From a virus: 64,000 nucleotides of DNA. Numbering within the stretch: position 1 is the first letter of the stretch; each line of letters begins with the position of its first letter. The notes under the pieces were generated by a model that saw only the letters and a program-made list of their open reading frames with translations, had not been told where the DNA came from and searched no databases. This document shows, piece after piece, positions 5,023 to 48,008 of this stretch. Both the position numbers and the translations under genes were made by a program. The stretch is from positions 5,145 through 69,144 of IMG/VR virus record IMGVR_UViG_3300037104_000892; one strand, given 5' to 3'.

Positions 5023-5092
5023 ATATAAATTTTTCTGTTTGAATTCCTATTACTCAGTTCATTGAAAAATTTTAAAATCGTCTACCCTATCG

Positions 5093-5149: not shown

Positions 5150-5154
5150 GTTTG

Positions 5155-5228: not shown

Positions 5229-5308
5229 AAATAAGTAGCAGGAGAGACAATACCTGCAAGTTTTTATCCAGTCTTCCTGGCGCCATCATTTTTTATTTGT
5301 TACTGAAT

Positions 5309-5384
5309 TGGCAGGGGTACCAGGATTCGAACCCGGAACTCAGGATTTGGAGTCGCGCATTTTACCAATTTCTACTATACCCCT
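5309..5384 (-). tRNA. tRNA-Trp(CCA), encoded CCA end
   Basis: AGGGGTA/TACCCCT G CCA; loop CT CCA AA; anticodon stem imperfect. Confidence 0.8.
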
Positions 5385-5388
5385 ATAG

Positions 5389-5417
5389 AAAAGGACTATA
5401 CTTTCATATAGTCCTTT
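5389..5417 (-). terminator. Intrinsic terminator-like hairpin after the His-rich ORF
   Basis: AAAGGACTATA-tgaaag-TATAGTCCTTTT. Confidence 0.6.
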
Positions 5418-5443
5418 AATCAATTAATTGTTTGAAATTTATT

Positions 5444-5854
5444 TTAAGTAATGTCTGTAGCCTTTTTAGTTATAACTATTGGCTTTCGTTTTTTCTCGTG
5501 ATGATGGTGATGATGATGGTGGTGGTGATCGTGATGGTGGTGACCATGATTGTGATGATCGTGATGTTCATCATCGTCATCATCTATAATAATTATCACT
5601 TCATCTCCGTTTTCATCTTCTTCAATAATTATCACTTCATCTTTGTTTTCATCGTCTTCAATGATTATCAATTCATCTTCATTTTGATCTTGATGATCGC
5701 GTTTCTGATCATCTTCATCAATGATTATCAATTCATCTTCATCATGATTATCTTCATCATGATTATCTTCGTTATGATTATTACGATCGTTGTAATTGTT
5801 GTAATCATTGTAATCATTTGGATCGTCATATTGACGAGATTGATCTTTTTTCAT
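5444..5854 (-). CDS. His/Asp-rich low-complexity protein ending in a PIVITKKATDIT strand
   Basis: Repeats E(L/V)IIIxEDE and a poly-His tract; likely start ATG 5854 just after the upstream stop. Confidence 0.65.
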   Translation of the reverse strand: MKKDQSRQYDDPNDYNDYNNYNDRNNHNEDNHDEDNHDEDELIIIDEDDQKRDHQDQNEDELIIIEDDENKDEVIIIEEDENGDEVIIIIDDDDDEHHDHHNHGHHHHDHHHHHHHHHHEKKRKPIVITKKATDIT

Positions 5855-5855
5855 A

Positions 5856-6188
5856 TTATACGACGTCTGTAGCTGGAAGAGTTTCAACGACTGGAATAGC
5901 TGTAACAACTTCATCTGCAAGAGTAGTGAATGAAAGAATTGCTCCTTCTGCTGTTCCTAATGAGTTTGTTGCATTTACTTTGAAAAAGTAAACTGTTGTT
6001 GCTAGTAAGTCGGTTACTGGTACTGATACAGGTACTACTGCATTTCCTGCAGGTACTGGTGTAGCGTCCAATGTTAAAGTTGTTGAATCTAATAAAGCTG
6101 CGTCGGTGCCATATACAAATTGTACTGTTGTATCTAAGTTACCTGGGTTTACTGATCCGTTTAATGTTGCTCCGTGTAATGTTGCCAT
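5856..6188 (-). CDS. FN3/Ig-like repeat protein with circularly permuted first strand
   Basis: ATLNGSVNP...F.YG...YFFKVNATNSLGT.EG....FTT core; C-terminal PVVETLPATDVV; likely start 6188. Confidence 0.6.
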   Translation of the reverse strand: MATLHGATLNGSVNPGNLDTTVQFVYGTDAALLDSTTLTLDATPVPAGNAVVPVSVPVTDLLATTVYFFKVNATNSLGTAEGAILSFTTLADEVVTAIPVVETLPATDVV

Positions 6189-6292
6189 AATATAATTATT
6201 TATTTTTTGTTGTATATTCAAATATTCGAATACATAATATATATTCACGAAAATATTTCATATATAGCCTGTGAGTGTACTGAAAATTATTG

Positions 6293-6366
6293 CGGTCCAT
6301 AGGGGTTACGATCCCCTCTTTTACCTGGGTGACAGCCAGGTTCCCATCCATAGGGCCCAATGAACC
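6293..6366 (-). tRNA. tRNA-Asp(GTC), atypical T-loop
   Basis: CCTGG-CT GTC AC-CCAGG. Confidence 0.7.
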
Positions 6367-6368
6367 AT

Positions 6369-6480
6369 AAAACAAAGAAAATCGGAAGAGGAAACAGCCG
6401 GAATTGAACCGGTAATTCAAATTAAAAGTCTGATGCCCCACCATGGGGCGCGAAGTAACTCTTTCCTTCACTATTGTTTT
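6369..6480 (-). ncRNA. Y-RNA-like element 2: conserved stem replaces the acceptor of a tRNA-Lys(TTT) body
   Basis: ATAGTGAAGGAAAGAGTTACTTCG; GCCCC ATGGT GGGGC; TCAGA-CT TTT AA-TTTGA; CCGG TTCAATT CCGG; CTCTTCCGATTTTCTTTGTT. Confidence 0.7.
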
Positions 6481-6481
6481 G

Positions 6482-6562
6482 TGCAGGTAGGGGGAATCGA
6501 ACCCCCATCCTCAGTTTGGAAGACTGAAACACTTTGCGTTATGCCCGTTGTGCTATACCTGC
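6482..6562 (-). tRNA. tRNA-Gly(TCC), enlarged D-loop
   Basis: TCAGT-CT TCC AA-ACTGA. Confidence 0.8.
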
Positions 6563-6645
6563 ATTTTAAATTTCTATGATGCTTCAGTCTGAAGTCCTAT
6601 GAAATTTTAACAGTCTCATAACCGATTTGATTTAAATCAGCAGGG

Positions 6646-6719
6646 TGGATACATACGGGCCTCGAACCCGTGACTCCTGGGTGCAAACCAAGTGTGTTAG
6701 CCATCTATACCAATGACCC
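6646..6719 (-). tRNA. tRNA-Ala(TGC)-like, bulged acceptor
   Basis: CTTGG-TT TGC AC-CCAGG; overlaps the 3' end of the endonuclease ORF. Confidence 0.65.
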
Positions 6720-7430
6720 ATTTTCGTATTTTTCTAAATCTTTTTTATATACTATTTCTAAATTTTTTAATGAACTTACAAAATTCTTTTTTTCTTCATC
6801 ATCTTTTTTCCAAAATCCTTTTATTTCAAAATATTTTTGTAATTTTGGACTCCAAAAATCCGGTGTATACCAATGAGATTTTCCATTTTTATCAAACCAA
6901 TTAAATTGGTGTTCTCTATTCCATATAGAAGGTTTAATCCAATTTTCATCAAGTTTGTTTAAAATTTTTGTAAAACGTAATTCATAAGAACCTTGAATTT
7001 TTATTATATCGCCATTAAGTTTTTCTACTTCGTACCAAGAACATCTTCCTCCTTTATTATTTAAAGATATTTTTTTCTTTGCTTCTTCAGATTGTGTTTT
7101 TCCTGTCATTCCTGAAGTACATCTGGAATGTTCAGAGTAATATATTTCTAATGTTTTTAAAAATCTTTGTGACAATATTTCTATATTCAATCTATTGTTA
7201 TATGTAACTGAACAAGAACATGAACAAAATTTTTGAAATCTTTTTTTTGTAGAAAATTTAAATTTACATTCTAAACATATTTTTTGAATAAGTGGTTTTC
7301 TTATTTTTTCATTTATTTCTTTTCTTTTTGCTTTTGTGCTAAATCCTCTTGCACATTTTGAAGAACAAAATCTTCCAGAAGCATAATTTCCTTCATGTTC
7401 TTTTCCACAATTTTCACAAACTTTCATCAT
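6705..7430 (-). CDS. Free-standing PD-(D/E)XK endonuclease with N-terminal Cys-rich module
   Basis: CENCGKEH..Y.SGRFCS..C; GSYE...YTPDF...EIKG. Confidence 0.7.
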   Translation of the reverse strand: MMKVCENCGKEHEGNYASGRFCSSKCARGFSTKAKRKEINEKIRKPLIQKICLECKFKFSTKKRFQKFCSCSCSVTYNNRLNIEILSQRFLKTLEIYYSEHSRCTSGMTGKTQSEEAKKKISLNNKGGRCSWYEVEKLNGDIIKIQGSYELRFTKILNKLDENWIKPSIWNREHQFNWFDKNGKSHWYTPDFWSPKLQKYFEIKGFWKKDDEEKKNFVSSLKNLEIVYKKDLEKYENGSLV

Positions 7431-7436
7431 TTAATT

Positions 7437-7468
7437 ATTATATGCATAAACAAGATAAAAGTTTTGAA
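7437..7468 (-). promoter_or_regulatory. Class II promoter-like motif AAAACTTTT-N~12-ATATAA, recurrent
   Basis: Similar copies near 3365, 8735, 12450, 26985, 34230, 40562, 41686, 43333, 45187, 46760, 47975, 54335, mostly just upstream of minus-strand genes or RNAs. Confidence 0.6.
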
Positions 7469-7495
7469 CTTATTCTTTTTGATTAGAATACTTAA

Positions 7496-7522
7496 TAGTA
7501 ACTCGTTGTTTTACTACAGTTT
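7496..7522 (-). ncRNA. Y-RNA-like element 3, 5' arm only (truncated at the endonuclease cassette)
   Basis: AAACTGTAGTAAAACAACGAGTTACTA with no matching 3' arm. Confidence 0.5.
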
Positions 7523-7524
7523 AG

Positions 7525-7596
7525 TGACCCCGGTGGGACTCGAACCCACATCTTCGGATTAAAAGTCCGAGGCGATTCCAATTTTGCTACAAGGTC
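7525..7596 (-). tRNA. tRNA-Lys(TTT)
   Basis: TCGGA-CT TTT AA-TCCGA. Confidence 0.88.
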
Positions 7597-7600
7597 AAAT

Positions 7601-7686
7601 CATGATCATTGGACTTTAACCAATACTTCAGATGCGGATTTATGCTTTCGCTACCCTATGTCTGCGTTCTCATTAAACTATTTCAT
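7601..7686 (-). ncRNA. Degenerate tRNA-like RNA with an expanded anticodon loop
   Basis: D-arm TAGTTTAATGAGAAC; CAGA..TCTG stem enclosing ~28 nt; T-arm ATTGG TTAAAGT CCAAT. Confidence 0.5.
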
Positions 7687-7693
7687 AATTATG

Positions 7694-7818
7694 TGGCGGG
7701 AAGAGTTGGATTTTCACCTCCAACTTTCAATTTATGAGATTGACATTCGATGTAATTCTGATCATCACTACATTGCTGAGAAATTCGAAAAGAATATTGT
7801 TTTTGAATTTTCTCGCCA
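7694..7818 (-). ncRNA. Y-RNA-like element 4, circularly permuted, with a CAT anticodon arm
   Basis: tRNA-like ends TGGCGAGA/TCCCGCCA; internal ATTTCTCA-GCAA-TGTAGTGATGATCAGAATTACATCG; TCAAT-CT CAT AA-ATTGA. Confidence 0.65.
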
Positions 7819-7823
7819 TTATG

Positions 7824-7898
7824 TCCCTCCGGTGGGATTCGAACCCACAACCTTCTCCTTAAAGGGGAGTAGCTCTGCGCAATTGGAGCTACGAAGGG
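7824..7898 (-). tRNA. tRNA-Lys(TTT)
   Basis: CTCC-CC TTT AA-GGAG. Confidence 0.82.
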
Positions 7899-8529: not shown

Positions 8530-8567
8530 AAAAAAAGCGGGTAACTTGTTAAAGGTCGCCCGCTTTT
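8530..8567 (-). terminator. Intrinsic terminator upstream of tRNA array 1 (candidate attenuator)
   Basis: AAAAGCGGGCGAC-loop-GTTACCCGCTTTTTTT. Confidence 0.75.
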
Positions 8568-8587
8568 CTATATATTGTGGTGTATTA

Positions 8588-8692
8588 TCAATCGATTATA
8601 TCATGATATGCGAGCGTAAGTTTTCCTCTAATGCCTTTATCATTGGCATTCCATTTATTATCCACGTTCATATGTCGCGCTGTGCGTATCAT
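8588..8692 (-). CDS. Putative 34-aa leader peptide MIRTARHMNVDNKWNANDKGIRGKLTLAYHDIID
   Basis: Lies between a class II promoter and the terminator; composition matches array-1 tRNAs. Confidence 0.7.
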   Translation of the reverse strand: MIRTARHMNVDNKWNANDKGIRGKLTLAYHDIID

Positions 8693-9111
8693 TTGTTTTT
8701 GCGTTTTCAAAATTATTGTTTGTTTATTCTTTTATTATATATTATGACAAAAGTTTTCGATTTTGCCACTTATTGTTTAAAAAAGATTCCGTAGGTTATC
8801 GCCAACATTACTTGGTGTCATCAGCCTCTTTTTCGCCGGAATCAATATTGTTTTGTTCTTTTCTTTTTAATGCTTCTACTTTGTTATAAATTTCTTTACA
8901 ATCATCGTTGCAAATATTCCACCAAAGTGCTCCACCCATTTGATCTCGAATACTTAAAGCTTTTTGTAAAAACTTTTCGCCTTCTTCAACTGTATCAAAT
9001 TTTAAAAAATCGTGAAGGTTGTTCATTCTGTTAAAGTTTTAATTAAGACAAATATAATCAAAATACTTGAATAAAAAAAATATTTTAACACTTATTTTCA
9101 AATTATTTTTA

Positions 9112-38840: not shown

Positions 38841-39547
38841 TCATTCGGCCAGTTATTTTTATCAAGTACGGGTTTTTCAAAAGCAGATGCTAACATATCA
38901 TATGTTCCTTTAAGGTCTTTAAGAGTTTCCCAACCTGACATAACATTCATATCCATTCCATACGCTACTGGTTTGTCATCTTCATAATGTACTTCAGTAA
39001 TAGAAAAGACACGAAATGATTTGCTTATAAACTTTGTATTGCCAAGTGAATCTCTATCCATTACATCGGGTTTCATTTCAGTAACAATTCTGTGATTCCA
39101 GTAATGTTTAGGTGTTTCTTTATCTTTTTTCATTTGTTGGAGTATAATCGTAAATGTCTGCTACTTCTTTATTTTCGTGACATACATCACAAGTATCTTC
39201 CCATGCAGAATAAACTGTATCAGGTAATATTTCTAAAAACATTTTAGAAGCGCAATCTTCACAGATTTGTTGAATTTGTTTCTTAAGCATTGCCGAAACG
39301 TTGTAGAAGAAGATTAAAATTTTCTTTGATCTTTTTTGGTGTGAACATTTTAAGAATGCCAGTCGGATCAAACACAATATGCCAAATTATAAAGACTGTT
39401 AAGATTAATCTTAGACCAGTTTCATCCTTTGGTATTAAAATAGCTAACATTACGCAAACTGCAATAACGATTAATTCTGCAAAGATAGCTAACCCTGTCA
39501 AAACATAGGGCATTTTTGATTTTTTCATGTGTTTATGTATTAAAGTG

Positions 39548-39630
39548 TGCCCGGAGAGGGACTCGAACCCTCACGCATTTTCAGCGCATGCTTTTGAGGC
39601 ATGTGCGTCTACCAGTTCCGCCATCCGGGC
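39548..39630 (-). tRNA. tRNA-Leu(CAA)
   Basis: CATGC-CT CAA AA-GCATG; long variable arm. Confidence 0.9.
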
Positions 39631-39728
39631 GGTCTAGCCTCCGCCGGTCTTTCACCGATAACCCACCCTTTATGATCAATATTGTGATGAGCGCAACTTT
39701 TTTTGTTGTTGCCAGAGGCCGTGTAAAT

Positions 39729-40547
39729 TTAAAGAACGTTTATTTTTTTCAAATCTGATTTAAATAAAACTTTTAAATTGGGTATAGATTTCCATTTTAA
39801 ATTATCTAATTCAGTTTTATAGCCTTTTATTTCAATAAATAGATTATCTTTTTCAAGATAAAAATCTGGAACGTAATAATGTTCTTTATTATTTGAATCG
39901 AAATAATTAAAATGTTTTGTATTTCGTTGCCATTTAATGTTATTTTCGTCCAAATATTTTGCATATGCTAATTCCCAACTACTTTGTAGATAAACTCTTC
40001 CTGCATATATACTATCATACCATCCTTGTTTACCTCTACCTGAGTTTTCTCTATATCCACCACATTTTCCAGAACACGCCTTTGATAATTTTTCGGAATA
40101 TTCTAATGTTTTGTAATAAGCCCTACTACATTTAAGAGAACAATATTTTTTATTTTTTAATTTTGTAGTAAATTCATTACCACAATTTTTACACTTTTTA
40201 ACATGTGGTTGTTTTGTTAAAGCATTTTTTATTTTTTCATTTATATCTTTTCTTTTTGCTTTTGTACTAAAACTTTTAGCGCATTCATTCGAACAAAATC
40301 TTCCTGAACCGTATTTTTCAAAAACTTCTTTTCCGCAATTTTCGCAAAAATAATGATATTGTTTTATTTCATGTATTTTTAAATGTTGTTTGTAATTTCT
40401 TAGTATTATTTCTTTATCACAATATTCACATTTAATTTTTTGATATGCATTATTTGCTCCATGTTTATGGATGCATTTCATAGAACAAAACTTATCACTT
40501 TGTATTTTAAAATTTTCAGAACCGCATATAATGCAAACTTTATTCAT
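39729..40547 (-). CDS. PD-(D/E)XK endonuclease with Cys-rich modules
   Basis: SSWE...YVPDFY...IEIKG; start likely 40547. Confidence 0.72.
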   Translation of the reverse strand: MNKVCIICGSENFKIQSDKFCSMKCIHKHGANNAYQKIKCEYCDKEIILRNYKQHLKIHEIKQYHYFCENCGKEVFEKYGSGRFCSNECAKSFSTKAKRKDINEKIKNALTKQPHVKKCKNCGNEFTTKLKNKKYCSLKCSRAYYKTLEYSEKLSKACSGKCGGYRENSGRGKQGWYDSIYAGRVYLQSSWELAYAKYLDENNIKWQRNTKHFNYFDSNNKEHYYVPDFYLEKDNLFIEIKGYKTELDNLKWKSIPNLKVLFKSDLKKINVL

Positions 40548-40614
40548 TAATAGTTTTGATATTATATACTTTTCTAATGCAAAAGTTTTCGATTCTATAA
40601 AAATAGTTTGATTG

Positions 40615-40698
40615 TACGGCGTGTGGGATTCGAACCCACGAATCATAAATGAACCAGCTTGAAGGGCTGGGTACTTTGAGCCGCTTGTATAACGCCGC
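40615..40698 (-). tRNA. tRNA-Glu(TTC) with long variable region
   Basis: CCAGC-CC TTC AA-GCTGG. Confidence 0.75.
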
Positions 40699-40857
40699 AT
40701 ATAATTTCAGTGTATCTTAAGAAGGTAGATACACCGTGGAACTTTTGTCTACCACAAGAAAGCCAACCCTTTCTTTGACTGTTTGGACGCCGGGTTGGGG
40801 TCGCGTTATCAGTCTATTACCTTTTAAAGGAGTTTTTCTGTTTTTTGCCTACCATGC

Positions 40858-40932
40858 ACTGGCCAGAATCGAACTGACCAGTTCGGGGTCACGATCCCCT
40901 CCGCACCAGAAGCCAACATTCCAATCGGCTAC
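40858..40932 (-). ncRNA. Degenerate tRNA-like element with a CGT (Thr) anticodon arm
   Basis: GGGG-AT CGT GA-CCCC; T-arm GTCAG TTCGATT CTGGC; no clear acceptor. Confidence 0.45.
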
Positions 40933-40979
40933 TTACTCCAATGTTAAAGAACTTTTATGTTGTTGGATATCGTCTTGCC

Positions 40980-41672
40980 CTAGCCGAAGCAATAGAGTAG
41001 ATACAGCATATCCATTGTTTTGTTGGGACCTTTCAGTCCCTTATTTTTTCTTCCTGGTTTCCATCCTTGATTTAACCAGAAATTTAAATCTTCTTTTTTA
41101 ATTTTTTTAACTTCATTGTTTTTTATTATCCAACGTATGCCGTACATTGAATTATTTTCTCCAACGTGATTATGTTTTCCTTTATGAGCTTTACGCCATT
41201 GTTCTTTTGTTTTTTCTGAATGTTTTTTATTTTTCATTCCCCAATTTTCGGGTTTATTTTTATTTAATTCAGAAAATCTTTTCGCTTGTCTATCTTTATG
41301 CCATTTAATATATTCAGGGTTATTCCATTGTGATTTCAATCCTGCTATTGTGCATTTTTTCCTATGTTCTTCATTAGAAAATCCTCCTTCACCTCCAATT
41401 TTTAAATTCATGCATAAAGGGTCATGTAATAAAGCTTCATTAACAAGTTCTATTTCTCTATTTTTTAAATCTTTTCGTATTTCAAAAAACTCTATTCTTT
41501 CAATTTGATGATTTTCTCTTCCATGTTTATTAAGAGAATATCCTAATCTTTTTCCACTACCTAAATAACCATCATCTAAGTTATTCGTAGAGTGCATTCC
41601 AACATAAAACTTATTTGTAATTAAACAAGTAGTTTTGTATATGAAATGATATTGCTTTTGTTGTCTTGGCAT
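40980..41672 (-). CDS. GIY-YIG homing endonuclease
   Basis: FIYKTT.....FYVGMHST..L.DGYLGSG. Confidence 0.85.
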   Translation of the reverse strand: MPRQQKQYHFIYKTTCLITNKFYVGMHSTNNLDDGYLGSGKRLGYSLNKHGRENHQIERIEFFEIRKDLKNREIELVNEALLHDPLCMNLKIGGEGGFSNEEHRKKCTIAGLKSQWNNPEYIKWHKDRQAKRFSELNKNKPENWGMKNKKHSEKTKEQWRKAHKGKHNHVGENNSMYGIRWIIKNNEVKKIKKEDLNFWLNQGWKPGRKNKGLKGPNKTMDMLYLLYCFG

Positions 41673-41717
41673 GCATATTTTTATATTATATACATAAGAA
41701 GAACAAAAGTTTCACAG

Positions 41718-41785
41718 TGCCGCCGGGAAGGATCGAACTTCCTCGCTAATGTTTTACAGACATGTCGTCTACCCTGATCGTCGGC
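41718..41785 (-). tRNA. Compact tRNA-Tyr(GTA)-like
   Basis: ATGT-CT GTA AA-ACAT; same acceptor sequence as 42298-42378; reduced D-arm. Confidence 0.6.
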
Positions 41786-42058
41786 TTATTTATTTGAATC
41801 GACAAATTCTTTCCATAATGTATCAACATCAATTTCTTTATTTAAATTTCCTTTGTATTTTAAAATAAGCCATTTAACAAAATTGATATCTCTATTCATT
41901 ATTACTACATCTGTAGTATTCATAGATAATGTTTCTTGTAAATCACTTAAATGACTCATTACAACCATTGATGCTTTTGTTTTCATGTCTTTATTTAATT
42001 GATATAGTGTTAATATAACAATAATTTCTGACAAATAAAAATTTCAATGAACTTATTT

Positions 42059-42283
42059 TCAAATTATTTTTGTATTTCTTATAACTTCAAATATTTTATC
42101 AACAGTTTCCTTTTTATGAATCCAAGTACATTTACTACAATCCCATATTTTTCCTTCAGTTCCATTTATGTAATTTCCTCTTTCTTTATTTTCACAAGGA
42201 TAAAAAGGACAATAACAAAATGTGCAATCTTCTAATTCACTGTGACATGGAAAATGTCTGCATGCCTTATTTTTTCTTTTCAT
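42059..42283 (-). CDS. Cysteine-rich small domain protein
   Basis: C..FPCH..LEDCTFCYCPFYPC...WDCSKCTWIH. Confidence 0.75.
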   Translation of the reverse strand: MKRKNKACRHFPCHSELEDCTFCYCPFYPCENKERGNYINGTEGKIWDCSKCTWIHKKETVDKIFEVIRNTKII

Positions 42284-42297
42284 TTTTTTAACTTTTG

Positions 42298-42378
42298 TGC
42301 CGCCGGAGGGACTCGAACCCCCATGCCCTAAGGACCTGATCTACAGTCAGGCGAGCCAACCAATTGCTCAACGTCGGC
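42298..42378 (-). tRNA. tRNA-Tyr(GTA)
   Basis: CCTGA-CT GTA GA-TCAGG; long variable arm. Confidence 0.85.
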
Positions 42379-42414
42379 ATTTGGCTGTCTTTCCAGCCTG
42401 TCATTATCGTTGAA

Positions 42415-42606
42415 TTATATTAATTTCACATTAATTGCACTCAATCCTCTTGGTCCGTCTTTAAGTTCGAAACTAACTTCGTCATTTTCGTTAATCTTAT
42501 CGATACAGCCTGTAACATGTACAAAATACTCTTTTGTTGATGTTTTGTCTTTGATAAATCCAAATCCCTTAACTGTGTTAAAGAATTTTACTGTTCCTTC
42601 ATTCAT
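42415..42606 (-). CDS. Cold-shock domain protein
   Basis: GTVKFFN..KGFGFI...FVH. Confidence 0.92.
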   Translation of the reverse strand: MNEGTVKFFNTVKGFGFIKDKTSTKEYFVHVTGCIDKINENDEVSFELKDGPRGLSAINVKLI

Positions 42607-42642
42607 AATCTATTATTTATTTTAATTCACTCTAATAATATA

Positions 42643-43323
42643 TTAGAGTTTGTCGTTAAGAATTATTTTCAATTCTTCTATCTCTTTATATAATTTTTCT
42701 TTATTATTATCATTTATTGGATTGTACCATTTAATTCTCAACACTTTCCAATCATTTTTTTCTAAAAACTTATCTTTAATTTGGTCTTTTTCTTTTCGTT
42801 CTTCGTGTTGTTTTCCGTCTATTTCTAACGCTAGCTTTTTATCAATGAACGCAAAATCAATGAACCATCGTCCTACTTTGTAATCTCGTTTCCAACCTTC
42901 AATTTTTTCATTTTCAAATAATGATATAAAATATTTTTCAGGATACGAAGGTTCTTTATCTTTTCGAGATTTCCATCCTGAAAAAGTTCCATTTTTTAAT
43001 CTTTCTTGCGCTTTTTTAGAAATTTTTTCTCTGGCTGATTCACAAGAACCATTATTTTTTCTTGCACAATTTCGTGAACAATATAGTTGATTCTTTTTTC
43101 TTGAGGCAAATGTTTCTTTACATTCAGGACATATTTTTGTTTCTTTATGTTTTGTTAATTTTAATGTTTCATTTGATCGACCCTTAAGTTTTTTACTTAT
43201 TTCACGATTAATTTCTTTTCTTTTGGCTTTTGTACTAAATCCTCTTGCACATTTACATGAACAAAATCTTCCTGAGCCATAAGTTACTTCATGTTCTTTA
43301 CCACAGTTTTCACAAACTTTCAT
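42643..43323 (-). CDS. DUF559/Vsr-like endonuclease with Cys-rich N-terminus
   Basis: SYPE...IDFA...LEIDG..H...D..KD..L...W.VLRI. Confidence 0.78.
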   Translation of the reverse strand: MKVCENCGKEHEVTYGSGRFCSCKCARGFSTKAKRKEINREISKKLKGRSNETLKLTKHKETKICPECKETFASRKKNQLYCSRNCARKNNGSCESAREKISKKAQERLKNGTFSGWKSRKDKEPSYPEKYFISLFENEKIEGWKRDYKVGRWFIDFAFIDKKLALEIDGKQHEERKEKDQIKDKFLEKNDWKVLRIKWYNPINDNNKEKLYKEIEELKIILNDKL

Positions 43324-43383
43324 CGTTTAATTATTATATGCATAATCAAGACAAAAGTTTTTGAACTTATGATCTCATGCTTG

Positions 43384-43456
43384 TCGAGGATGCCAGATTC
43401 GAACTGTTATTAATGCTCCCAAAGCACTCGTGTTACCGGGTTACACCACATCCTCG
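43384..43456 (-). tRNA. tRNA-Pro(TGG)
   Basis: AGTGC-TT TGG GA-GCATT. Confidence 0.78.
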
Positions 43457-43461
43457 AAATT

Positions 43462-43650
43462 AAATGTTTGTTCCTTACCAAGCGGAAATAAAGCCGCAAA
43501 TCTTAATGCGCAATTTCCAATCACTTTATCTTACAACGAATATCATCCTCTTGGAAGGATTGTAATTTAGCGCAACCAAGCGCATCTGATATAATCTCGG
43601 TCCTGTCAATTCAGGTTTCACTCATTACTATTCGCCTTCAGCAAACATTT
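43462..43650 (-). ncRNA. Candidate ~190-nt structured RNA between tRNAs
   Basis: Closed by AAATGTTTG/CAAACATTT; internal hairpins CCTG/CAGG, GCGC/GCGC, ATCCT/AGGAT, GCGG/CCGC. Confidence 0.5.
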
Positions 43651-43652
43651 TG

Positions 43653-43736
43653 TGCCCAGAGGGGGACTCGAACCCCCAAACCCTTTCGGACATCGGCTCC
43701 TTGGGCCGACGCGTCTACCATTTCCGCCATCTGGGC
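43653..43736 (-). tRNA. tRNA-Leu(AAG)
   Basis: TCGGC-CC AAG GA-GCCGA; long variable arm. Confidence 0.85.
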
Positions 43737-43742
43737 AAATTG

Positions 43743-43813
43743 TAATGCATGACAGAATCGAACTGTCATTTTCAGATTGAGGGTCTGACCTCCTGCCGTT
43801 AGAGGAATGCATC
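43743..43813 (-). tRNA. tRNA-Glu(CTC)
   Basis: TCAGA-CC CTC AA-TCTGA. Confidence 0.82.
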
Positions 43814-43934
43814 ATTTTAAAAAACATAACCTTGTCTTATTTCCTTTAACCCAATTGGGACATCCATCATGATCTATTCGGATGATGATAAAGTGGTCTG
43901 CTAATAGCTTTTTAGCAGGGCTATGTTTAATTTG

Positions 43935-44014
43935 TGGCCCTGAAGGGATTCGAACCCTCAAGAGCTCCGGGTTTAAGCCGGTGAACTGTGCCAGTTTGTA
44001 TAAGCCACAGGGCC
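43935..44014 (-). tRNA. tRNA-Leu(TAA), atypical D-arm
   Basis: CCGG-CT TAA AC-CCGG. Confidence 0.7.
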
Positions 44015-44018
44015 AATT

Positions 44019-44142
44019 AAGTAGAGAAAGCCTAAGAGAATGTGTACAGTGAATTTCGAGTTCACAATGATCTTTCGATCACCAGTTTTGAGCTAGTTGC
44101 ATTTACCATTTTGCGATGTAATTCTCTAAATTACTACTACTT
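44019..44142 (-). ncRNA. Y-RNA-like element 7: conserved stem replaces the acceptor of a tRNA-Leu(CAA) body
   Basis: AGTAGTAATTTAGAGAATTACATCG; D-arm; ACTAG-CT CAA AA-CTGGT; GATC GAAA GATC; T-arm; ATTCTCT..CTTTCTCTACTT. Confidence 0.7.
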
Positions 44143-44144
44143 TG

Positions 44145-44216
44145 TACCCCCGATGGGATTCGAACCCATAAAATCTTGGTTCTAGGCCAAGCGGTTTACC
44201 ATTTTCCTACAGGGGC
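44145..44216 (-). tRNA. tRNA-Leu(TAG), short variable arm
   Basis: CTTGG-CC TAG AA-CCAAG. Confidence 0.75.
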
Positions 44217-44221
44217 GTATG

Positions 44222-44290
44222 TGATCAACTGGACTTGAACCGTATCCTGAGCGCTTAATGCCCTCCGTGCTACCATTACACTATTTGATC
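44222..44290 (-). tRNA. Degenerate tRNA-like RNA with TTA at the anticodon position
   Basis: D-arm TAGTGTAATGGTAGCAC; GAGGG-CA TTA AG-CGCTC; GGTTCAAGTCC. Confidence 0.45.
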
Positions 44291-44421
44291 CCTACATTTA
44301 TGTTTACTAATGAGTGACCAGCTTTTCGTAGATTAAAATGTAGTTCTGATACCGGGATGTCTCTGACTTAGGTTATCGCCATAGCATCTCTTTTAAGGAA
44401 CTCTAGTCCGGGTATTCATAG

Positions 44422-44495
44422 TCGGAATGGTGGAACTCGAATCCACGACCTCCTGAACCCGAATCAGGTAATCTAGCCAACTGATATACATTCCG
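44422..44495 (-). tRNA. tRNA-Pro(CGG)
   Basis: CCTGA-TT CGG GT-TCAGG. Confidence 0.85.
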
Positions 44496-44508
44496 TGGAT
44501 CTGGATAA

Positions 44509-45177
44509 TTATAGTCCTCCAGTTATGAGACTTTTAAAATTTTCTATTTGTGGATATAATTTTTCTTTATTATTTTCATTTATAGGGTTAAACCATTTTA
44601 TTCTAATAACTTGCCAATTATTTTTTTTCAAAAAATCATCTTTGATTTTATCATGTTCTTTTCGTTGTTCATGCTGGCTTCCATCTATTTCTAATGCAAT
44701 CATTTTATTTTCAAACGCAAAATCAATAAACCATCTACCAACTTTGTAATCTCGTTTCCAACCTTCAATTTTTTCATTTTCAAATAATGATATAAAATAT
44801 TTTTCAGGATACGAAGGTTTTTTATCTTTTCGAGATTTCCAACCTTTACATGTGCCATTTTTAATTCCTTGTTTTATAGCTTTAGATAAGTTTTCTCTTG
44901 TTTCTGTAGAAATAGTTCTTGTTGAACAATAGTTAGAACAATAAATTCTATCTCTATCATTCCAATTAACTATAAATTCTTTTTTACATTCTAAACATAT
45001 TTTTTTAATTTTACGTTCATGACCTAAATCTCTAGTTTTTAAAGTTTCACTTACTAATGCATTTATTTCTTTTCGTTTTGCTTTAGTGCTAAATCCTCTT
45101 GCACATGTTTTTGAACAAAATCTTCCTGAACCATACGTTCCTTCATGTTCTTTATTGCAATTTTTGCAAGCTTTCAT
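44509..45177 (-). CDS. DUF559/Vsr-like endonuclease (paralog of 42643-43323)
   Basis: Near-identical GWKSRKDK.PSYPEKYFISLFENEKIEGWKRDYKVGRWFIDFAF. Confidence 0.78.
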   Translation of the reverse strand: MKACKNCNKEHEGTYGSGRFCSKTCARGFSTKAKRKEINALVSETLKTRDLGHERKIKKICLECKKEFIVNWNDRDRIYCSNYCSTRTISTETRENLSKAIKQGIKNGTCKGWKSRKDKKPSYPEKYFISLFENEKIEGWKRDYKVGRWFIDFAFENKMIALEIDGSQHEQRKEHDKIKDDFLKKNNWQVIRIKWFNPINENNKEKLYPQIENFKSLITGGL

Positions 45178-45233
45178 CGTTTAATTATTATATGCACAAA
45201 TAAGATAAAAGTTTTTGAACCAATATACTGTTG

Positions 45234-45308
45234 TCTAGATGGAGGGACTCGAACCCCCAATAATCCGGCTTCCAATGCCGGCAACCTCACCATGTGGATC
45301 GCACCTAG
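45234..45308 (-). tRNA. tRNA-Pro(TGG)
   Basis: CCGGC-AT TGG AA-GCCGG. Confidence 0.75.
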
Positions 45309-45732
45309 TTATTCCGCCTTCAGATTATAGTGCTGTTTGCGTTTTCACCTGTGATTACAGGAAGCACTTTATATTAACAATATGTCAAAGACCGTTTATA
45401 AATATTTCATCCAAGCATAATGCTTGCGATTTGTTAAATAATTTTCATCATTTTGATTTTGATAAGATTCTTGTTCAAATGATATTTTATAATATCCTCT
45501 TAGTAAATGTTCTATTTCATACCAAATATAAAATGGAATAATTAACATTTCAATTTGTTGTTTCCAATGTATCTTTTCATGATTTAATGTAGTTTTATCA
45601 TTCAAATCCATAACATATATACCAAAAGGAGCTAAAGTAATTCCAGTTACGTTTTTTCCAAAAAGCTGCAAAAATTTATTCATCTTTCTTATTCTCATCT
45701 TAACAATTTATATGTTTTACTCAAAATATTTG

Positions 45733-45807
45733 TGTGGAATGAGGGAATCGAACCCTCCTACTCTGGCTCTTCGGGCCAGCGCTTGAACGCTACTCAGCTA
45801 TTTCCAC
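45733..45807 (-). tRNA. tRNA-Phe(GAA)
   Basis: CTGGC-CC GAA GA-GCCAG. Confidence 0.82.
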
Positions 45808-45868
45808 GTTTTGGCTGGTGATTTGAATCCCATTTAATCGTTACGCCTAACGAACCATTTTTTAATTG

Positions 45869-45949
45869 CTACCCCAAGTGGATTCGAACCACTATCCCAA
45901 GTTTCAAAGACTCAGATAATTAGCGTTAGCACCTTTATACGATGGGGCA
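45869..45949 (-). tRNA. tRNA-Gln(TTG), enlarged D-loop
   Basis: TGAGT-CT TTG AA-ACTTG. Confidence 0.72.
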
Positions 45950-45955
45950 ATATTG

Positions 45956-46027
45956 TTGTTCTTCCGGGACTCGAACCCAGATTACTTGCTTCAGAGGCAA
46001 GTGTGGTAGCCGTTACACTAAAGAACA
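45956..46027 (-). tRNA. tRNA-Gln(CTG)
   Basis: CTTGC-CT CTG AA-GCAAG. Confidence 0.85.
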
Positions 46028-46031
46028 GTTT

Positions 46032-46112
46032 AAGTTGAGAAATGCGAAGTGAGCTGTTTGGTTTAAAATTTTTCTGATTTCTACGAAGTAACTCATTTTC
46101 TTACTACAACTT
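46032..46112 (-). ncRNA. Y-RNA-like element 8 (short)
   Basis: AAGTTGTAGTAAGAAAATGAGTTACTTCG ... GCTCACTTCGCATTTCTCAACTT. Confidence 0.7.
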
Positions 46113-46745
46113 TTTTCTTCCTTGAAGCCATCCATTTGTTAAATACAAATGTAGTTCTTCAACTCTTATTCTTTTTATTTCATTGATACGACTAACCCAT
46201 CTAAAATTTTTATTTTCCGGGTGTTTATTTTTATGAGATTTTTTCATAATTTTTATTGTATCTTCAGAATGCTTTTTATTTATCCACCAATCATGATTTT
46301 TTCTTGCTTTTTTAACTCCTTTTGATATATTATCTTTCCATTGAGTTAACCATTCTTTATCATTTTCACGTAACCAAGATAACTGTTTATTTCCTTTTAG
46401 ACTTTTTTCTTGTTGTATACGACTATTTGAATTTAAACTCCAACATACGTTTCTTCCATCATTTCCGCCTAATTGAATATTCATACAAAGAGGGTGGCGA
46501 AGCATATTTTCATTAACTAATTCAATTTCTCGATTTTTTAATTTTTCTCTTGTTTCAAAGAACTCTGTTTTTTCACAAATATGATTTTCTTTTCCATGTT
46601 TATTTAAAGAATACCATAAATGCTTTCCACTACCCAAATACCCATCTTCTAAATTGTTCGTAGAGTGCATTCCTATGTAAAACTTATTTGTAATTAAACA
46701 AGTAGTTTTATATATGAAATGATATTTCTTTTGTAGTCTTGGCAT
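46104..46745 (-). CDS. GIY-YIG homing endonuclease (paralog of 40980-41672)
   Basis: FIYKTTCLITNKFYIGMHST. Confidence 0.85.
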   Translation of the reverse strand: MPRLQKKYHFIYKTTCLITNKFYIGMHSTNNLEDGYLGSGKHLWYSLNKHGKENHICEKTEFFETREKLKNREIELVNENMLRHPLCMNIQLGGNDGRNVCWSLNSNSRIQQEKSLKGNKQLSWLRENDKEWLTQWKDNISKGVKKARKNHDWWINKKHSEDTIKIMKKSHKNKHPENKNFRWVSRINEIKRIRVEELHLYLTNGWLQGRKKL

Positions 46746-46790
46746 GTATAGTTTTGTTTTATATGCATGCCAAGTACAAAAGTTTCACTG

Positions 46791-46910
46791 TGGGGGAGGC
46801 TGGAATTGCACCAACTTTTTGAGATTTTACCGATCTGATTTCGAAGTATCTCTATTCGTCACTATGATTTTGCAATCAAGAAAAGTGAAAGAGCATTTTA
46901 TTGCTCCCCC
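46791..46910 (-). ncRNA. Y-RNA-like element 9, circularly permuted inside tRNA ends
   Basis: Acceptor GGGGGAG/CTCCCCC; CTCTTTCACTTTTCTTGATT-GCAA-AATCATAGTGACGAATAGAGATACTTCG; AGAT-CG GTA AA-ATCT; T-arm GTTGG TGCAATT CCAGC. Confidence 0.7.
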
Positions 46911-46943
46911 TTATACATTTTATTCAAAGAACATTTTATTTTG

Positions 46944-47023
46944 AGCACTTGGTTGGATTCGAACCAACGGTGTGGATTTTACGCTTTGCAGGCGCATGCC
47001 TTCGACCACTCGACCACAAGTGC
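46944..47023 (-). tRNA. tRNA-Cys(GCA)
   Basis: TGCGC-CT GCA AA-GCGTA; U73. Confidence 0.85.
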
Positions 47024-47024
47024 A

Positions 47025-47651
47025 TTATGTTTTAATTTTTTTATTCAAAAGAACTTCTTTATTCCAAATTTCAACTATTACTTGAGGATATTTAGCAGAA
47101 AATTCATTAAATTTTTCTTTATTTTCTTTTCTCCGATAACCCTTAACTTCAATATGTTTAACTAAAATATCGTTTTCGTATATTGAAAAATCTGGAGTAT
47201 ATGATCTTGTATCACTTAATGAATATGATTTATCTTCATATTTCCAGTTTATTTGGTTTTCATTTAAAAATTGAGCAACATTTATTTCCCAAGACGATTT
47301 AAAAGTTAATCCATCGTATATGATATTTCTTCTTCTAAAAGATGTAGCTCCGTTTTTATTTCCTTTCATAGAAAGGGCAATCTTGTGTTTTCTATTTACT
47401 TCTTCAATTGGGTCCGAAGCTTTTCCGGTTGCCACGCCTGTTAAACTTTTCGAAATTTTGTCACCTATTTCTTTAGCTCGTTTTTCTCCATAAGTTTCTT
47501 TAAATGTTTTTCCTTTATTGATGGGAATAAGTCCTAACAAAGGATTTTTAAAATTTTTTCCTTCTTCAGTATGTTTTCTCCAAATATGACCTTTAATTCC
47601 CATTTTTGAAAAAGATTTTTCGCAATAAGGACATTTGATTTTATTTTCCAT
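47025..47651 (-). CDS. PD-(D/E)XK endonuclease
   Basis: FKSSWE...W.YE...YTPDF...IEVKG. Confidence 0.75.
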   Translation of the reverse strand: MENKIKCPYCEKSFSKMGIKGHIWRKHTEEGKNFKNPLLGLIPINKGKTFKETYGEKRAKEIGDKISKSLTGVATGKASDPIEEVNRKHKIALSMKGNKNGATSFRRRNIIYDGLTFKSSWEINVAQFLNENQINWKYEDKSYSLSDTRSYTPDFSIYENDILVKHIEVKGYRRKENKEKFNEFSAKYPQVIVEIWNKEVLLNKKIKT

Positions 47652-47749
47652 TTAATAAAGAACATTTAACTAAATATAATCAAAATACTTGACATAAAAA
47701 AATATTTTAGCATTTATTTTCAAACTTTTTTCTTTTTTTTACTCCATTC

Positions 47750-47781
47750 AAACACGAAACCCTCTGTTTTGCAGAGGGTTC
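47750..47781 (-). terminator. Terminator-like hairpin upstream of tRNA array 2 (candidate attenuator)
   Basis: GAACCCTCTG-CAAAA-CAGAGGGTTT CGTGTTT. Confidence 0.65.
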
Positions 47782-47818
47782 AGAAAGGAGTATATAATAA
47801 ATGACTTTATTCCATACC

Positions 47819-47917
47819 TTATCTTTGACCCTCCGTAATAGTTTCATAACACAACGGTAGCTGCTCACTAAATTGTGGGAGTTGTGAAAAGGGTAAATAT
47901 GTAAAGTACAAAGTCAT
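47819..47917 (-). CDS. Putative 32-aa leader peptide MTLYFTYLPFSQLPQFSEQLPLCYETITEGQR
   Basis: Lies between a class II promoter and the terminator; codons match array-2 tRNAs. Confidence 0.72.
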   Translation of the reverse strand: MTLYFTYLPFSQLPQFSEQLPLCYETITEGQR

Positions 47918-48008
47918 CTTCTTAATTTCTTTAATTTATTTATATATCAATTGCTGATTCTGTAATTATATTAACTTAATGTAAAAAGTTTCGTAAATTA
48001 ATGTATAT

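What the first reader, a model, noticed from the sequence alone, without database searches (positions are those of the whole stretch)
47750..47917. Leader-peptide attenuator whose codons list the tRNAs of downstream array 2
Seen: an unannotated 32-codon ORF (47917-47819) follows a class II promoter. Its 3' end ACGGAGGGTCA can pair (~10 bp) with the 5' arm of the adjacent terminator hairpin (TGAACCCTCTG), which is antiterminator geometry. 22 of 32 residues are Leu/Tyr/Phe/Pro/Gln/Glu/Cys, the amino acids of the tRNAs at 39.5-47.0 kb. The match extends to isoacceptors: TTG/TTA/CTC/CTA vs Leu CAA/TAA/AAG/TAG; CCA/CCG vs Pro TGG/CGG; CAA/CAG vs Gln TTG/CTG; GAA/GAG vs Glu TTC/CTC. It contains no His/Asn/Val/Asp/Lys/Trp/Ala, which belong to array 1. 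Ser (2) and Thr (4) codons are matched only by a degenerate CGT element at ~40.9 kb. Established: ribosome-stalling attenuation controls amino-acid biosynthesis operons, and host anticodon nucleases deplete tRNAs during infection. Inference: the phage senses loss of any of these tRNAs by ribosome stalling and switches on the replacement array. I know of no description of this for phage tRNA arrays. Caveat: other promoter motifs lie between the terminator and the tRNAs (~47675) and inside the array.
Basis: partly seen in the sequence, partly recalled or inferred. Interest (0 to 1): 0.95.

Follow-up and report, generated by a model that had tools for sequence, protein, structure and literature searches.

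The report
Leader-peptide attenuator gating phage tRNA array
A giant phage places each of its two blocks of tRNA genes behind a tiny conserved test gene, spelled in the amino acids those tRNAs carry and wired to a switchable transcription stop, so it probably makes the tRNAs when ribosomes read those codons slowly.

Summary
The 32-codon ORF at 47917-47819 (-) exists, and 22 of its 32 residues belong to the seven amino acids served by the downstream tRNA array.

It is not a chance ORF:
- It is conserved, in frame, just upstream of the same Cys-Gln-Phe-Leu-Pro-Tyr-Glu array in 8 other distinct phage contigs. The ORF frame has 0 stops; the other two frames have 20 and 28.
- A G-rich box at the ORF's 3' end is, in 9 of 9 sequences, the best alternative partner of the terminator's 5' arm.
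- In folding models this antiterminator forms only while a ribosome sits at codons 2 to about 24, which is where the matching codons lie.

A second, unrelated leader ORF heads array 1 at 8692-8588. It has the same wiring and the complementary amino-acid set. The real tRNA partition ranks among the best 10 of 77,520 possible partitions.

Best reading: trp/ilv-style ribosome-mediated attenuation applied to tRNA genes.

Nothing is shown experimentally. A promoter-like element lies behind the terminator.

Seven literature searches found no published account. This scan has noted the same kind of element on other giant-phage DNA; those are AI notes that I did not check.

The parts
47966..47991 (-).
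   Evidence: 11 copies in the window, all on the minus strand, against 0.2 expected by chance. The motif is conserved in relatives. Promoter function is inferred.
47819..47917 (-). Leader ORF B: 32 codons plus a TAA stop. Codons 2-25 form the sensing track (20 of 24 are array-2 amino acids). Codons 26-32 overlap the antiterminator box.
   Evidence: The ORF is conserved in 9 distinct sequences. The ORF frame has 0 stops; the other two frames have 20 and 28.
47901..47918 (-). 5' strand of the long-range helices P1/P2. It includes the start codon.
   Evidence: RNAalifold consensus. 7 of the 14 P1/P2 pairs show compensatory changes.
47826..47836 (-). Antiterminator box: a G-rich copy of the terminator's 3' arm, in ORF codons 28-31.
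   Evidence: Best alternative partner of the terminator 5' arm in 9 of 9 sequences. 90.5% of cells are paired, against 36-74% in the slid controls. The duplex is stronger than nearly all shuffles in 7 of 9 sequences.
47800..47818 (-). 3' strand of P1/P2, just behind the stop codon. It can also fold into a local hairpin with the conserved spacer.
   Evidence: covariation. For the local hairpin, 81.7% of cells pair but there is no covariation.
47784..47796 (-). Nearly invariant non-coding spacer block between the ORF and the terminator.
   Evidence: Alignments A2 and A4. Its role is not resolved.
47749..47781 (-). Terminator hairpin (47781-47757, 10 pairs, 5-nt loop) with a T-rich tract (47759-47749).
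   Evidence: The stem is conserved, with compensatory changes at the top two pairs. The T tract is weak in this window and better in relatives. The simple scan does not list it.
47670..47731 (-). Second promoter-like region behind the terminator. It contains a Bacteroidota-type -7-like element; that consensus is recalled, not from a call.
   Evidence: Conserved in L001, L002, L003 and L085. The stretch 47672-47731 recurs in many other contigs of the same metagenomes.
47025..47651 (-). Homing-endonuclease-like gene (zinc finger plus DUF1064 nuclease domain), inserted between the attenuator and the first tRNA.
   Evidence: Pfam hits. No such gene sits between the leader and tRNA-Cys in L001, L002, L004 or L086.
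39547..47023 (-). tRNA array 2: Cys, Gln, Phe, Pro x3, Leu x4, Glu x2 and Tyr, interspersed with homing-endonuclease genes.
   Evidence: ARAGORN finds 12 tRNAs. Rfam adds one with anticodon TAA at 43935-44014. The order is shared with relatives.
8530..8756 (-). Sister attenuator of array 1. Promoter-like motif 8756-8735, 34-codon leader ORF A 8692-8588, antiterminator box 8617-8609, terminator 8566-8530.
   Evidence: Homologues occur in G001 and L116, directly in front of tRNA-Lys.
2972..7898 (-). tRNA array 1: Lys, Ala, Gly, Asp, Trp, Asn, Ile, Val, Met, His and Arg. An HNH gene (8504-7947) is inserted behind the terminator.
   Evidence: ARAGORN finds 16 tRNAs. Rfam adds 3. The Asn tRNA carries an insert.

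Best explanation
The element is a ribosome-mediated (leader-peptide) transcription attenuator in front of phage tRNA array 2.

Proposed sequence of events:
1. Transcription starts at the phage promoter-like motif (47991-47966), and the 32-codon leader is translated as it is made.
2. Codons 2-25 are almost all codons for Leu, Tyr, Phe, Pro, Gln, Glu and Cys, the amino acids of the tRNAs encoded downstream, and they cover every Leu, Pro, Gln and Glu anticodon class.
3. If any of these codons is decoded slowly, the ribosome waits inside this track. The G-rich box at the ORF's 3' end (47836-47826) stays free and pairs with the 5' arm of the terminator as it emerges. The terminator cannot form, and RNA polymerase reads on into the array. 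In this window it also reads into an inserted homing-endonuclease gene.
4. If decoding is fast, the ribosome reaches the last codons and covers the box. The terminator forms and transcription stops.
5. With no translation at all, the long-range helices P1/P2 (start-codon region paired with the post-stop region) interleave with the antiterminator and should favour termination.

Array 1 has its own, unrelated leader with the complementary amino-acid set and the same wiring. Each block would therefore be under negative feedback from its own products, and would respond to shortage of the host's tRNAs.

Shown here: conservation of the ORF and the hairpin, covariation, the alternative pairing, and the composition statistics.
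Inferred: translation of the leader, the kinetic switch, and the physiological trigger.
For: (1) Conservation. Contigs fetched through a neighbouring gene, not through the ORF itself, carry a homologous 32-36-codon ORF 70-400 nt upstream of a tRNA-Cys that heads the same array. This holds in 9 distinct sequences plus 1 partial.

(2) Reading frame. Over the 9 sequences the ORF frame has 0 stops, and the other two frames have 20 and 28. Indels are codon-sized and the ATG is invariant.

(3) Composition.
- 22 of 32 residues are from the array's set. The ORF ranks 2nd of 242 and 1st of 169 among small ORFs, and 0 of 1508 windows of real proteins reach this value.
- All 7 set members are present in 9 of 9 relatives. 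165 of 216 residues at positions 2-25 are from the set.

(4) Second, independent leader. ORF A has 0/21, 0/21 and 1/21 array-2 residues at positions 2-22 in its three homologues.
- Fisher test of A against B: p = 4e-7.
- The real 7/13 split of tRNAs is among the best 10 of 77,520 possible splits.
- Amino-acid pairs that differ only in the third codon base (Asp/Glu, His/Gln, Trp/Cys) sort 15 of 15 the right way, joint p about 2-3e-5.

(5) Isoacceptors. All 10 Leu/Pro/Gln/Glu anticodon classes are covered, using codons that are rare in this genome, p = 0.0014.

(6) Switch.
- The best alternative partner of the terminator's 5' arm is the ORF-end box in 9 of 9 B sequences (-9.0 to -19.8 kcal/mol, next best -3.2 to -9.2) and 3 of 3 A sequences (-12.4 to -13.8, next best -6.7 to -7.5).
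- Out of 500 shuffles, the number reaching the observed duplex was 7, 1, 88, 3, 0, 5, 0, 0 and 16 for the 9 B sequences.
- Where the top of the stem changes (L001, L003, L088), the box changes with it.

(7) Ribosome masking on the nascent transcript. In 8 of 9 B sequences the antiterminator is mostly formed (P 0.5-1.0) with the A site at codons 2 to about 24, and falls to about 0-0.3 from codon 25-27 on. That switch point is the border of the matching codons. In L004 the fall is only gradual, from 0.8 to 0.3.

(8) Structure. The consensus structure has 9 of 24 pairs with compensatory changes, and 0 of 500 shuffles reach its covariation score.

(9) In G001 and L116 only about 45 nt separate terminator A from the first tRNA.
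Against: - No expression data: no RNA run holds the stretch.
- Once the whole terminator is transcribed it wins at equilibrium in almost every masked state. The switch must therefore be kinetic, which cannot be shown here.
- A conserved promoter-like region lies between terminator B and the array. Array 2 may be transcribed regardless of the attenuator.
- The T tract is weak in this window, and the simple scan does not list the hairpin.
- Ser/Thr codons fill 4 of 24 sensing positions here and 28 of 216 in the family. A further 23 of 216 are other non-set residues. No Ser/Thr tRNA lies in array 2.
- Covariation of the antiterminator itself is modest: 2 pairs compensatory, and 29 of 500 shuffles reach the score.
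- In L094 the duplex is not better than 88 of 500 shuffles.
- In L002 and L003 the stop codon lies well behind the box. A ribosome at the stop then does not cover the box, and the model's antiterminator probability returns to 1.0 there.
- Without a ribosome the model gives the antiterminator P = 0.33-1.0, so the 'no translation means termination' default is not uniform.
- Substitutions show no three-base periodicity (0.335, 0.394, 0.390). Translation cannot be argued from synonymous change, and an RNA-level constraint could explain the conserved third positions.
- Only 3 homologues of ORF A were found.
- ARAGORN also calls a Cys tRNA inside array 1.
Confidence: 0.7

Rival explanations
1. The unit is a separate small gene or small RNA with its own promoter and terminator, which happens to lie in front of the array. 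The tRNAs are transcribed from the promoter-like element behind the terminator. The match in composition has another cause, or none.
For: A conserved promoter-like region lies behind the terminator. A well-conserved peptide core and non-coding block are present. The terminator dominates at equilibrium. The long-range helix buries the start codon.
Against: Two unrelated ORFs show complementary compositions that match their own arrays: 10 of 77,520 partitions, and a third-base test at about 2-3e-5. The box that competes with the terminator sits in the ORF's last codons in 12 of 12 sequences. Third codon positions are not freer than the others, unlike a peptide under ordinary purifying selection. 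In front of array 1 in G001 and L116 there are only about 45 nt between the terminator and the first tRNA.
Confidence: 0.12
2. The element is an attenuator that senses something other than the supply of these particular tRNAs. Candidates are general translation capacity, a nascent-peptide arrest by the conserved core motif, or a small molecule or factor acting on the ribosome.
For: The order of residues in the core, not only its composition, is conserved. Arrest peptides with switchable terminators are known (TnaC and erm-type leaders, recalled from memory). Any slowing of translation would give read-through in this geometry.
Against: Leader A shares no motif with leader B yet has the same wiring. 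Both list the amino acids of their own array and avoid those of the other. Rare codons cover every isoacceptor class.
Confidence: 0.12
3. The hairpin is only an insulating terminator for the upstream gene or for the homing-endonuclease gene behind it, and the ORF is a chance frame in a 3' untranslated region.
For: In this window both leaders are followed by homing-endonuclease genes. Terminators in front of free-standing endonuclease genes are known from phage Aeh1 mobE (recalled from memory).
Against: The ORF and hairpin are kept in relatives that have no endonuclease gene there. The ORF frame has 0 stops; the other frames have 20 and 28. The unit has its own promoter-like motif.
Confidence: 0.03

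Closest known systems
Multivalent leader-peptide attenuators of amino-acid operons (thr: Thr+Ile; ilvGMEDA/ilvBN: Leu, Val, Ile; also trp, his, leu, pheA). Recalled from textbook knowledge.
   Same: A short translated leader between promoter and regulated genes. Regulatory codons for several amino acids sit in the stretch where a stalled ribosome frees an antiterminator. The stop codon lies close to the antiterminator strand. An intrinsic terminator follows. An extra pairing favours termination without translation.
   Different: The regulated genes are tRNA genes, not biosynthetic enzymes. The roster covers 7 (array 2) or about 12 (array 1) amino acids, mostly once to five times each rather than in runs. 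It samples different isoacceptor codons. There is no sequence or structure match to any Rfam leader family.
pheST (pheM) attenuator, which controls an aminoacyl-tRNA synthetase operon in E. coli. Recalled from memory.
   Same: Leader-peptide attenuation applied to a gene of the translation apparatus. It senses the charged tRNA that the product acts on.
   Different: It has one amino acid and protein products. Here the products are the tRNAs themselves, which closes a direct feedback loop.
Stress-induced tRNA L-array (trn operon) of Anabaena PCC 7120. PMC8421152: passages read. PMC10272220: search listing and word search only.
   Same: A supernumerary tRNA array that is silent by default and switched on when translation is impaired.
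   Different: [quoted passage not shown] The words 'leader peptide', 'attenuat' and 'terminator' do not occur in either main text. That system is cellular and plasmid-borne, not a phage, and it has no codon roster.
T-box riboswitches. Recalled from memory.
   Same: A terminator/antiterminator switch in a leader that reads the state of a specific tRNA.
   Different: A T-box binds the tRNA directly without translation and controls synthetase and amino-acid genes. No T-box match was found at E<=1, and here an ORF is maintained.
Polycysteine leaderless short ORFs as cysteine-responsive attenuators in mycobacteria. 10.1101/834739: search listing only.
   Same: A short ORF rich in one codon type governs downstream operon expression.
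   Different: It uses a single amino acid, controls biosynthetic targets, and is cellular.

Membership tests
Ribosome-mediated leader-peptide transcription attenuators (trp/his/thr/ilv type) | A short ORF in the leader, between a promoter and the regulated genes | tested here: met
   A 32-codon ORF lies 48 nt behind a recurrent promoter-like motif. It is conserved in 9 distinct sequences with 0 in-frame stops.
Ribosome-mediated leader-peptide transcription attenuators (trp/his/thr/ilv type) | Regulatory codons that correspond to the product of the regulated genes | tested here: met
   22 of 32 residues, and 20 of 24 at positions 2-25, come from the array's seven amino acids. Partition test: 10 of 77,520. 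Isoacceptor coverage: p = 0.0014. Ser/Thr are exceptions.
Ribosome-mediated leader-peptide transcription attenuators (trp/his/thr/ilv type) | An intrinsic terminator between the leader ORF and the regulated genes | tested here: inconclusive
   The hairpin is conserved with compensatory changes, and T tracts are good in most relatives. The tract is weak in this window, the simple scan does not list the hairpin, and termination was not measured.
Ribosome-mediated leader-peptide transcription attenuators (trp/his/thr/ilv type) | A mutually exclusive antiterminator whose upstream strand lies at the end of the ORF | tested here: met
   The box is the best alternative partner in 9 of 9 B sequences and 3 of 3 A sequences. 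90.5% of cells are paired.
Ribosome-mediated leader-peptide transcription attenuators (trp/his/thr/ilv type) | Ribosome position decides between the two structures | tested here: inconclusive
   Only modelled. On the nascent transcript the antiterminator forms with the A site at codons 2 to about 24 and is lost beyond that. At equilibrium the terminator always wins.
Ribosome-mediated leader-peptide transcription attenuators (trp/his/thr/ilv type) | The leader is translated, and read-through responds to charged-tRNA supply | not testable with these tools
   No RNA run holds the stretch. This needs reporters, Ribo-seq and Term-seq.
Ribosome-mediated leader-peptide transcription attenuators (trp/his/thr/ilv type) | The regulated genes are amino-acid biosynthesis or synthetase genes | tested here: not met
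   Downstream lie tRNA genes and homing-endonuclease genes. The element works like the family but is not a member of any described one.
Rfam leader families and T-box (sequence and structure models) | A match to a curated covariance model | tested here: not met
   No match over 47.7-48.0 kb at E<=1. Only chance-level hits over 8.3-8.9 kb at E<=5. Only tRNA matches in L111 and L116 at gathering score.
Insulating terminators in front of free-standing homing-endonuclease genes | The terminator travels with the endonuclease gene | tested here: not met
   The leader and terminator are present in relatives that have no endonuclease gene behind them.

The most novel reading that the evidence does not exclude
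Every tRNA block of this roughly 400-kb phage lineage is gated by its own translated sensor that lists, at isoacceptor resolution, the codons its tRNAs read. Array 2 has leader B, array 1 has leader A, and the amber-suppressor unit may have a micro-ORF with an in-frame amber codon. The phage would then measure decoding speed codon by codon. It would transcribe only the block that is short, whether the shortage comes from a mismatch with the host's tRNA pool, from host anticodon nucleases, or from the switch to amber read-through late in infection.
Probability: 0.35. Interest if true: 0.95.

Novelty: new variant of a known kind. Interest (0 to 1): 0.85.

Why it matters
How phages regulate their tRNA genes is largely unknown. 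These genes are usually treated as constitutive codon-usage helpers or as spare parts against tRNA-cleaving defences.

A leader-peptide attenuator that lists the array's own codons would be a direct supply-and-demand controller for tRNAs. It would extend the classic trp/his logic from amino-acid synthesis to the decoding machinery itself.

It gives a simple, testable prediction: omit or cleave one tRNA and read-through rises. It offers a way to read from sequence which tRNAs a phage treats as limiting. It also provides compact natural parts for synthetic circuits that report decoding speed of chosen codons.

The two-array partition with complementary leaders inside one genome is an unusually clean internal control.

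Tried and rejected
Searches that found nothing:
- Close relatives by exact hairpin pattern, and by two neighbouring proteins, in viral contigs.
- blastn of the region against the phage collection gave only a homing-endonuclease hit in a Bacillus phage.
- No second copy of the element in the 69-kb genome.
- More family members through the peptide alignment: the 9-row alignment was too variable. A 6-row alignment returned only contigs already known.

Tools and data that were unavailable:
The closest relatives of the neighbouring HD protein (76-90% identity) therefore could not be looked at in context.
- Paper supplements were not consulted.

Tests that could not be run or gave no support:
Among 117 loci, only this clade has arrays.
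- Equilibrium folding with ribosome masks gave no switch.
- The local hairpin behind the stop codon has no covariation support.
- A degenerate-tRNA reading of the region was considered and dropped: neither ARAGORN nor Rfam gives a tRNA-like hit there.

Sequencing runs:
- No RNA holder was listed.
- Laying 4 DNA runs gave contigs only. These show no transcripts. They show few differences over the leader in one strain, which I do not use as evidence.
Full report
**What is there.** On the minus strand at 47917-47819 lies an ATG-started ORF of 32 codons. 22 of its 32 residues are Leu, Tyr, Phe, Pro, Gln, Glu or Cys. It has no His, Asn, Val, Asp, Lys, Trp or Ala.

- 48 nt upstream lies a motif that occurs 11 times in the window, always on the minus strand, against 0.2 expected.
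- 37 nt behind the stop codon lies a 10-pair hairpin (47781-47757) followed by a T-rich tract.
- The simple terminator scan does not list this hairpin, because the tract is weak in this window.
- Further downstream come a second promoter-like stretch, a homing-endonuclease-like gene at 47651-47025, and then tRNA-Cys at 47023 as the first gene of the array.
- ARAGORN finds 12 tRNAs between 39.5 and 47.0 kb, for Cys, Gln, Phe, Pro, Leu, Glu and Tyr.
- Rfam adds one at 43935-44014. I read its anticodon loop as TAA.

**The genome.** The window is part of a 69-kb virus record. It carries clamp loader, exonuclease, CCA-adding enzyme, NAD-salvage and Ro-like genes. A relative, G001, is a complete 405-kb genome with terminal repeats. 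All of its 39 tRNA hits lie within 313-361 kb on one strand.

**Is the composition more than chance?**
- Among 242 ATG ORFs of 25-45 codons in the window the ORF ranks second. With GTG and TTG starts allowed, 5 of 393 reach it.
- Among 169 ORFs of 28-40 codons in the whole 69-kb genome it ranks first.
- 0 of 1508 32-residue windows from the phage's own proteins of 120 residues or more reach 22/32. Their mean is 0.316.

**Conservation.**
- The HD-domain protein 3.4 kb upstream has many homologues.
I therefore fetched loci through alignments of that protein and of a 92-residue neighbour.
- In these loci the array is syntenic and starts with Cys, Gln and Phe.
- A profile of the element finds it in every locus that reaches far enough. 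This gives 9 distinct sequences plus one cut by a contig end.
- All have an ATG ORF of 32-36 codons. Identity to the window's peptide is 34-94%. The neighbouring 92-residue protein is 32-82% identical.
- Over the ORF span the ORF frame has 0 stops in 9 sequences, and the other two frames have 20 and 28. Gaps in the codon alignment are whole codons.
- Substitutions show no three-base periodicity (0.335, 0.394, 0.390 by codon position). This fits selection on codon identity or on RNA, and does not fit ordinary selection on a peptide.
- All seven amino acids of the set are present in 9 of 9 leaders. At positions 2-25, 165 of 216 residues are from the set, 28 are Ser or Thr and 23 are others. In the tails, 2-3 of 7-11 residues are from the set.

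**The switch.**
- In each of the 9 sequences the strongest alternative partner of the terminator's 5' arm anywhere in the leader is a G-rich box in the last codons of the ORF. Duplexes are -9.0 to -19.8 kcal/mol, hairpins are -13.8 to -22.1, and next-best partners are -3.2 to -9.2.
- Against 500 dinucleotide shuffles of each leader, the number reaching the observed duplex is 7, 1, 88, 3, 0, 5, 0, 0 and 16.
- Where the upper stem differs (L001, L003, L088), the box differs in the same way.
- On alignment A4 the seven core antiterminator pairs are formed in 90.5% of cells, against 36-74% when slid. Covariation is only modest: 2 pairs compensatory, and 29 of 500 shuffles reach the score.
- RNAalifold predicts the terminator and two long-range helices that pair the start-codon region with the stretch just behind the stop codon. 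9 of 24 pairs have compensatory changes, 92.6% of cells are paired, and 0 of 500 shuffles reach the covariation score.
- These long-range helices interleave with the antiterminator. I infer that they favour termination when the leader is not translated.
- Folding the nascent transcript (3' arm not yet made) with a 29-nt ribosome mask gives the expected behaviour in 8 of 9 sequences. The 5' arm is mostly paired (P 0.5-1.0) with the A site at codons 2 to about 24, with the box as its partner in the unmasked fold. Pairing falls to about 0-0.3 from codon 25-27 on, once the mask covers the box. That is the border of the matching codons. In L004 the fall is only gradual, from 0.8 to 0.3.
- With the whole terminator present, the terminator wins at equilibrium. 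The choice would have to be kinetic, as it is in classical attenuators.

**A second, independent case in the same genome.** I checked it.
- It has the same promoter-like motif, a clear terminator at 8566-8530, an inserted HNH gene and then array 1.
- Homologues in G001 and L116 lie directly (about 45 nt) in front of tRNA-Lys, with no endonuclease gene. Their indels are codon-sized.
- Array 1 in G001 and L116 serves Lys, Gly, Asp, Trp, Ala, Asn, Val, Met, His, Arg, Ile, Thr and Ser. This is the exact complement of array 2.
- In the window Rfam adds three tRNAs to array 1. One is an Asn tRNA with an insert of about 75 nt.
- Positions 2-22 of the three A leaders hold 0, 0 and 1 array-2 residues out of 21.
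- Their terminator arm again has its best partner in the ORF's 3' part (-12.4 to -13.8, next best -6.7 to -7.5).
- Fisher's test of leader A against leader B on the partition gives p = 4e-7. Of all 77,520 ways to choose 7 amino acids, only 10 separate the two leaders as well as the real tRNA partition does.
- Composition bias cannot explain this. Asp/Glu, His/Gln and Trp/Cys differ only in the third codon base, and they sort 15 of 15 the right way, joint p about 2-3e-5.
- Leader B also uses codons that are rare in this genome, so that all ten Leu, Pro, Gln and Glu anticodon classes are sampled, p = 0.0014 given the peptide and the genome's synonymous usage.

**What does not fit.**
- Ser and Thr codons in leader B have no tRNA in array 2. 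In the four relatives with good coverage of array 2, none has a Ser or Thr tRNA there. In G001 and L116 these tRNAs sit at the far end of array 1.
- A conserved promoter-like region lies between terminator B and the array. Its sequence recurs in many other contigs of the same metagenomes. Array 2 may have attenuator-independent transcription.
- In L002 and L003 the stop codon lies well behind the box.
- Without a ribosome the model is not uniform.
- L094's duplex is unremarkable against shuffles.
- Only three A homologues exist.
- ARAGORN calls a Cys tRNA in array 1.
- No RNA data exist.

**Comparison with what is known.**
- The wiring is that of the multivalent leader-peptide attenuators of the thr and ilv operons, and of the pheST attenuator. 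Both are recalled from memory.
- The element matches no Rfam leader or T-box model, and the regulated genes are tRNAs.
- Seven full-text searches returned no paper describing leader-peptide attenuation of tRNA genes.
- The nearest is the Anabaena trn array, which is silent until translation is impaired. It is controlled through promoter repeats and a repressor (PMC8421152, passages read; PMC10272220, listing and word search only).
- Earlier notes of this scan report the same kind of element on at least eight other giant-phage genomes. None is similar in sequence to this one. These are unchecked AI notes and I do not count them as evidence.

**Verdict.** The central reading is well supported by comparative and statistical evidence: a translated roster leader wired to a terminator/antiterminator switch in front of the tRNA array. 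The physiological trigger is inference, one side prediction failed, and no experiment exists. It is a new variant of a known kind of control.

Noticed in passing
window 34812-34847 (-), and L113 about 4436-4462 (-): A micro-ORF of 8-11 codons with an in-frame amber codon at codon 4-5. It is followed by duplicated arms and a hairpin, and lies upstream of a roughly 115-residue ORF and the amber-suppressor tRNA (anticodon CTA). The architecture, including the in-frame amber, recurs in the 405-kb relative G001. It is a possible third sensor, for suppressor supply.
   Followed up: partly
window 4440-4587 (-): A tRNA found by Rfam (50.8 bits, 148 nt) but missed by ARAGORN. I read the anticodon loop as Asn GTT, interrupted by an insert of about 75 nt.
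   Followed up: partly
window 47025-47651 (-) and 7947-8504 (-): In this window a homing-endonuclease-like gene sits at the same relative place in both arrays, between the attenuator's terminator and the first tRNA. Relatives have none there.
   Followed up: partly
L111 about 700-1110 (-), and L116 about 11370-11760 (+): A conserved, G+C-richer stretch directly upstream of the Thr/Ser tRNAs in two relatives. It looks like a structured RNA and has no Rfam match at gathering score.
   Followed up: no
L001 12433-12435, and L085 5374-5376: 2 of the 9 B leaders end in TAG and the other 7 in TAA. In a phage that carries an amber suppressor tRNA, read-through would carry the ribosome up to or through the terminator.
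   Followed up: no
window 47672-47731: This stretch behind the terminator is present, with 3-7 differences, in many otherwise unrelated contigs of four metagenome runs. That suggests a widely repeated promoter-like element of this phage group.
   Followed up: no
window 3055-3129 and 3245-3320 (-): Two weak Rfam tRNA hits (34.7 and 31.2 bits) that ARAGORN does not call.
   Followed up: no
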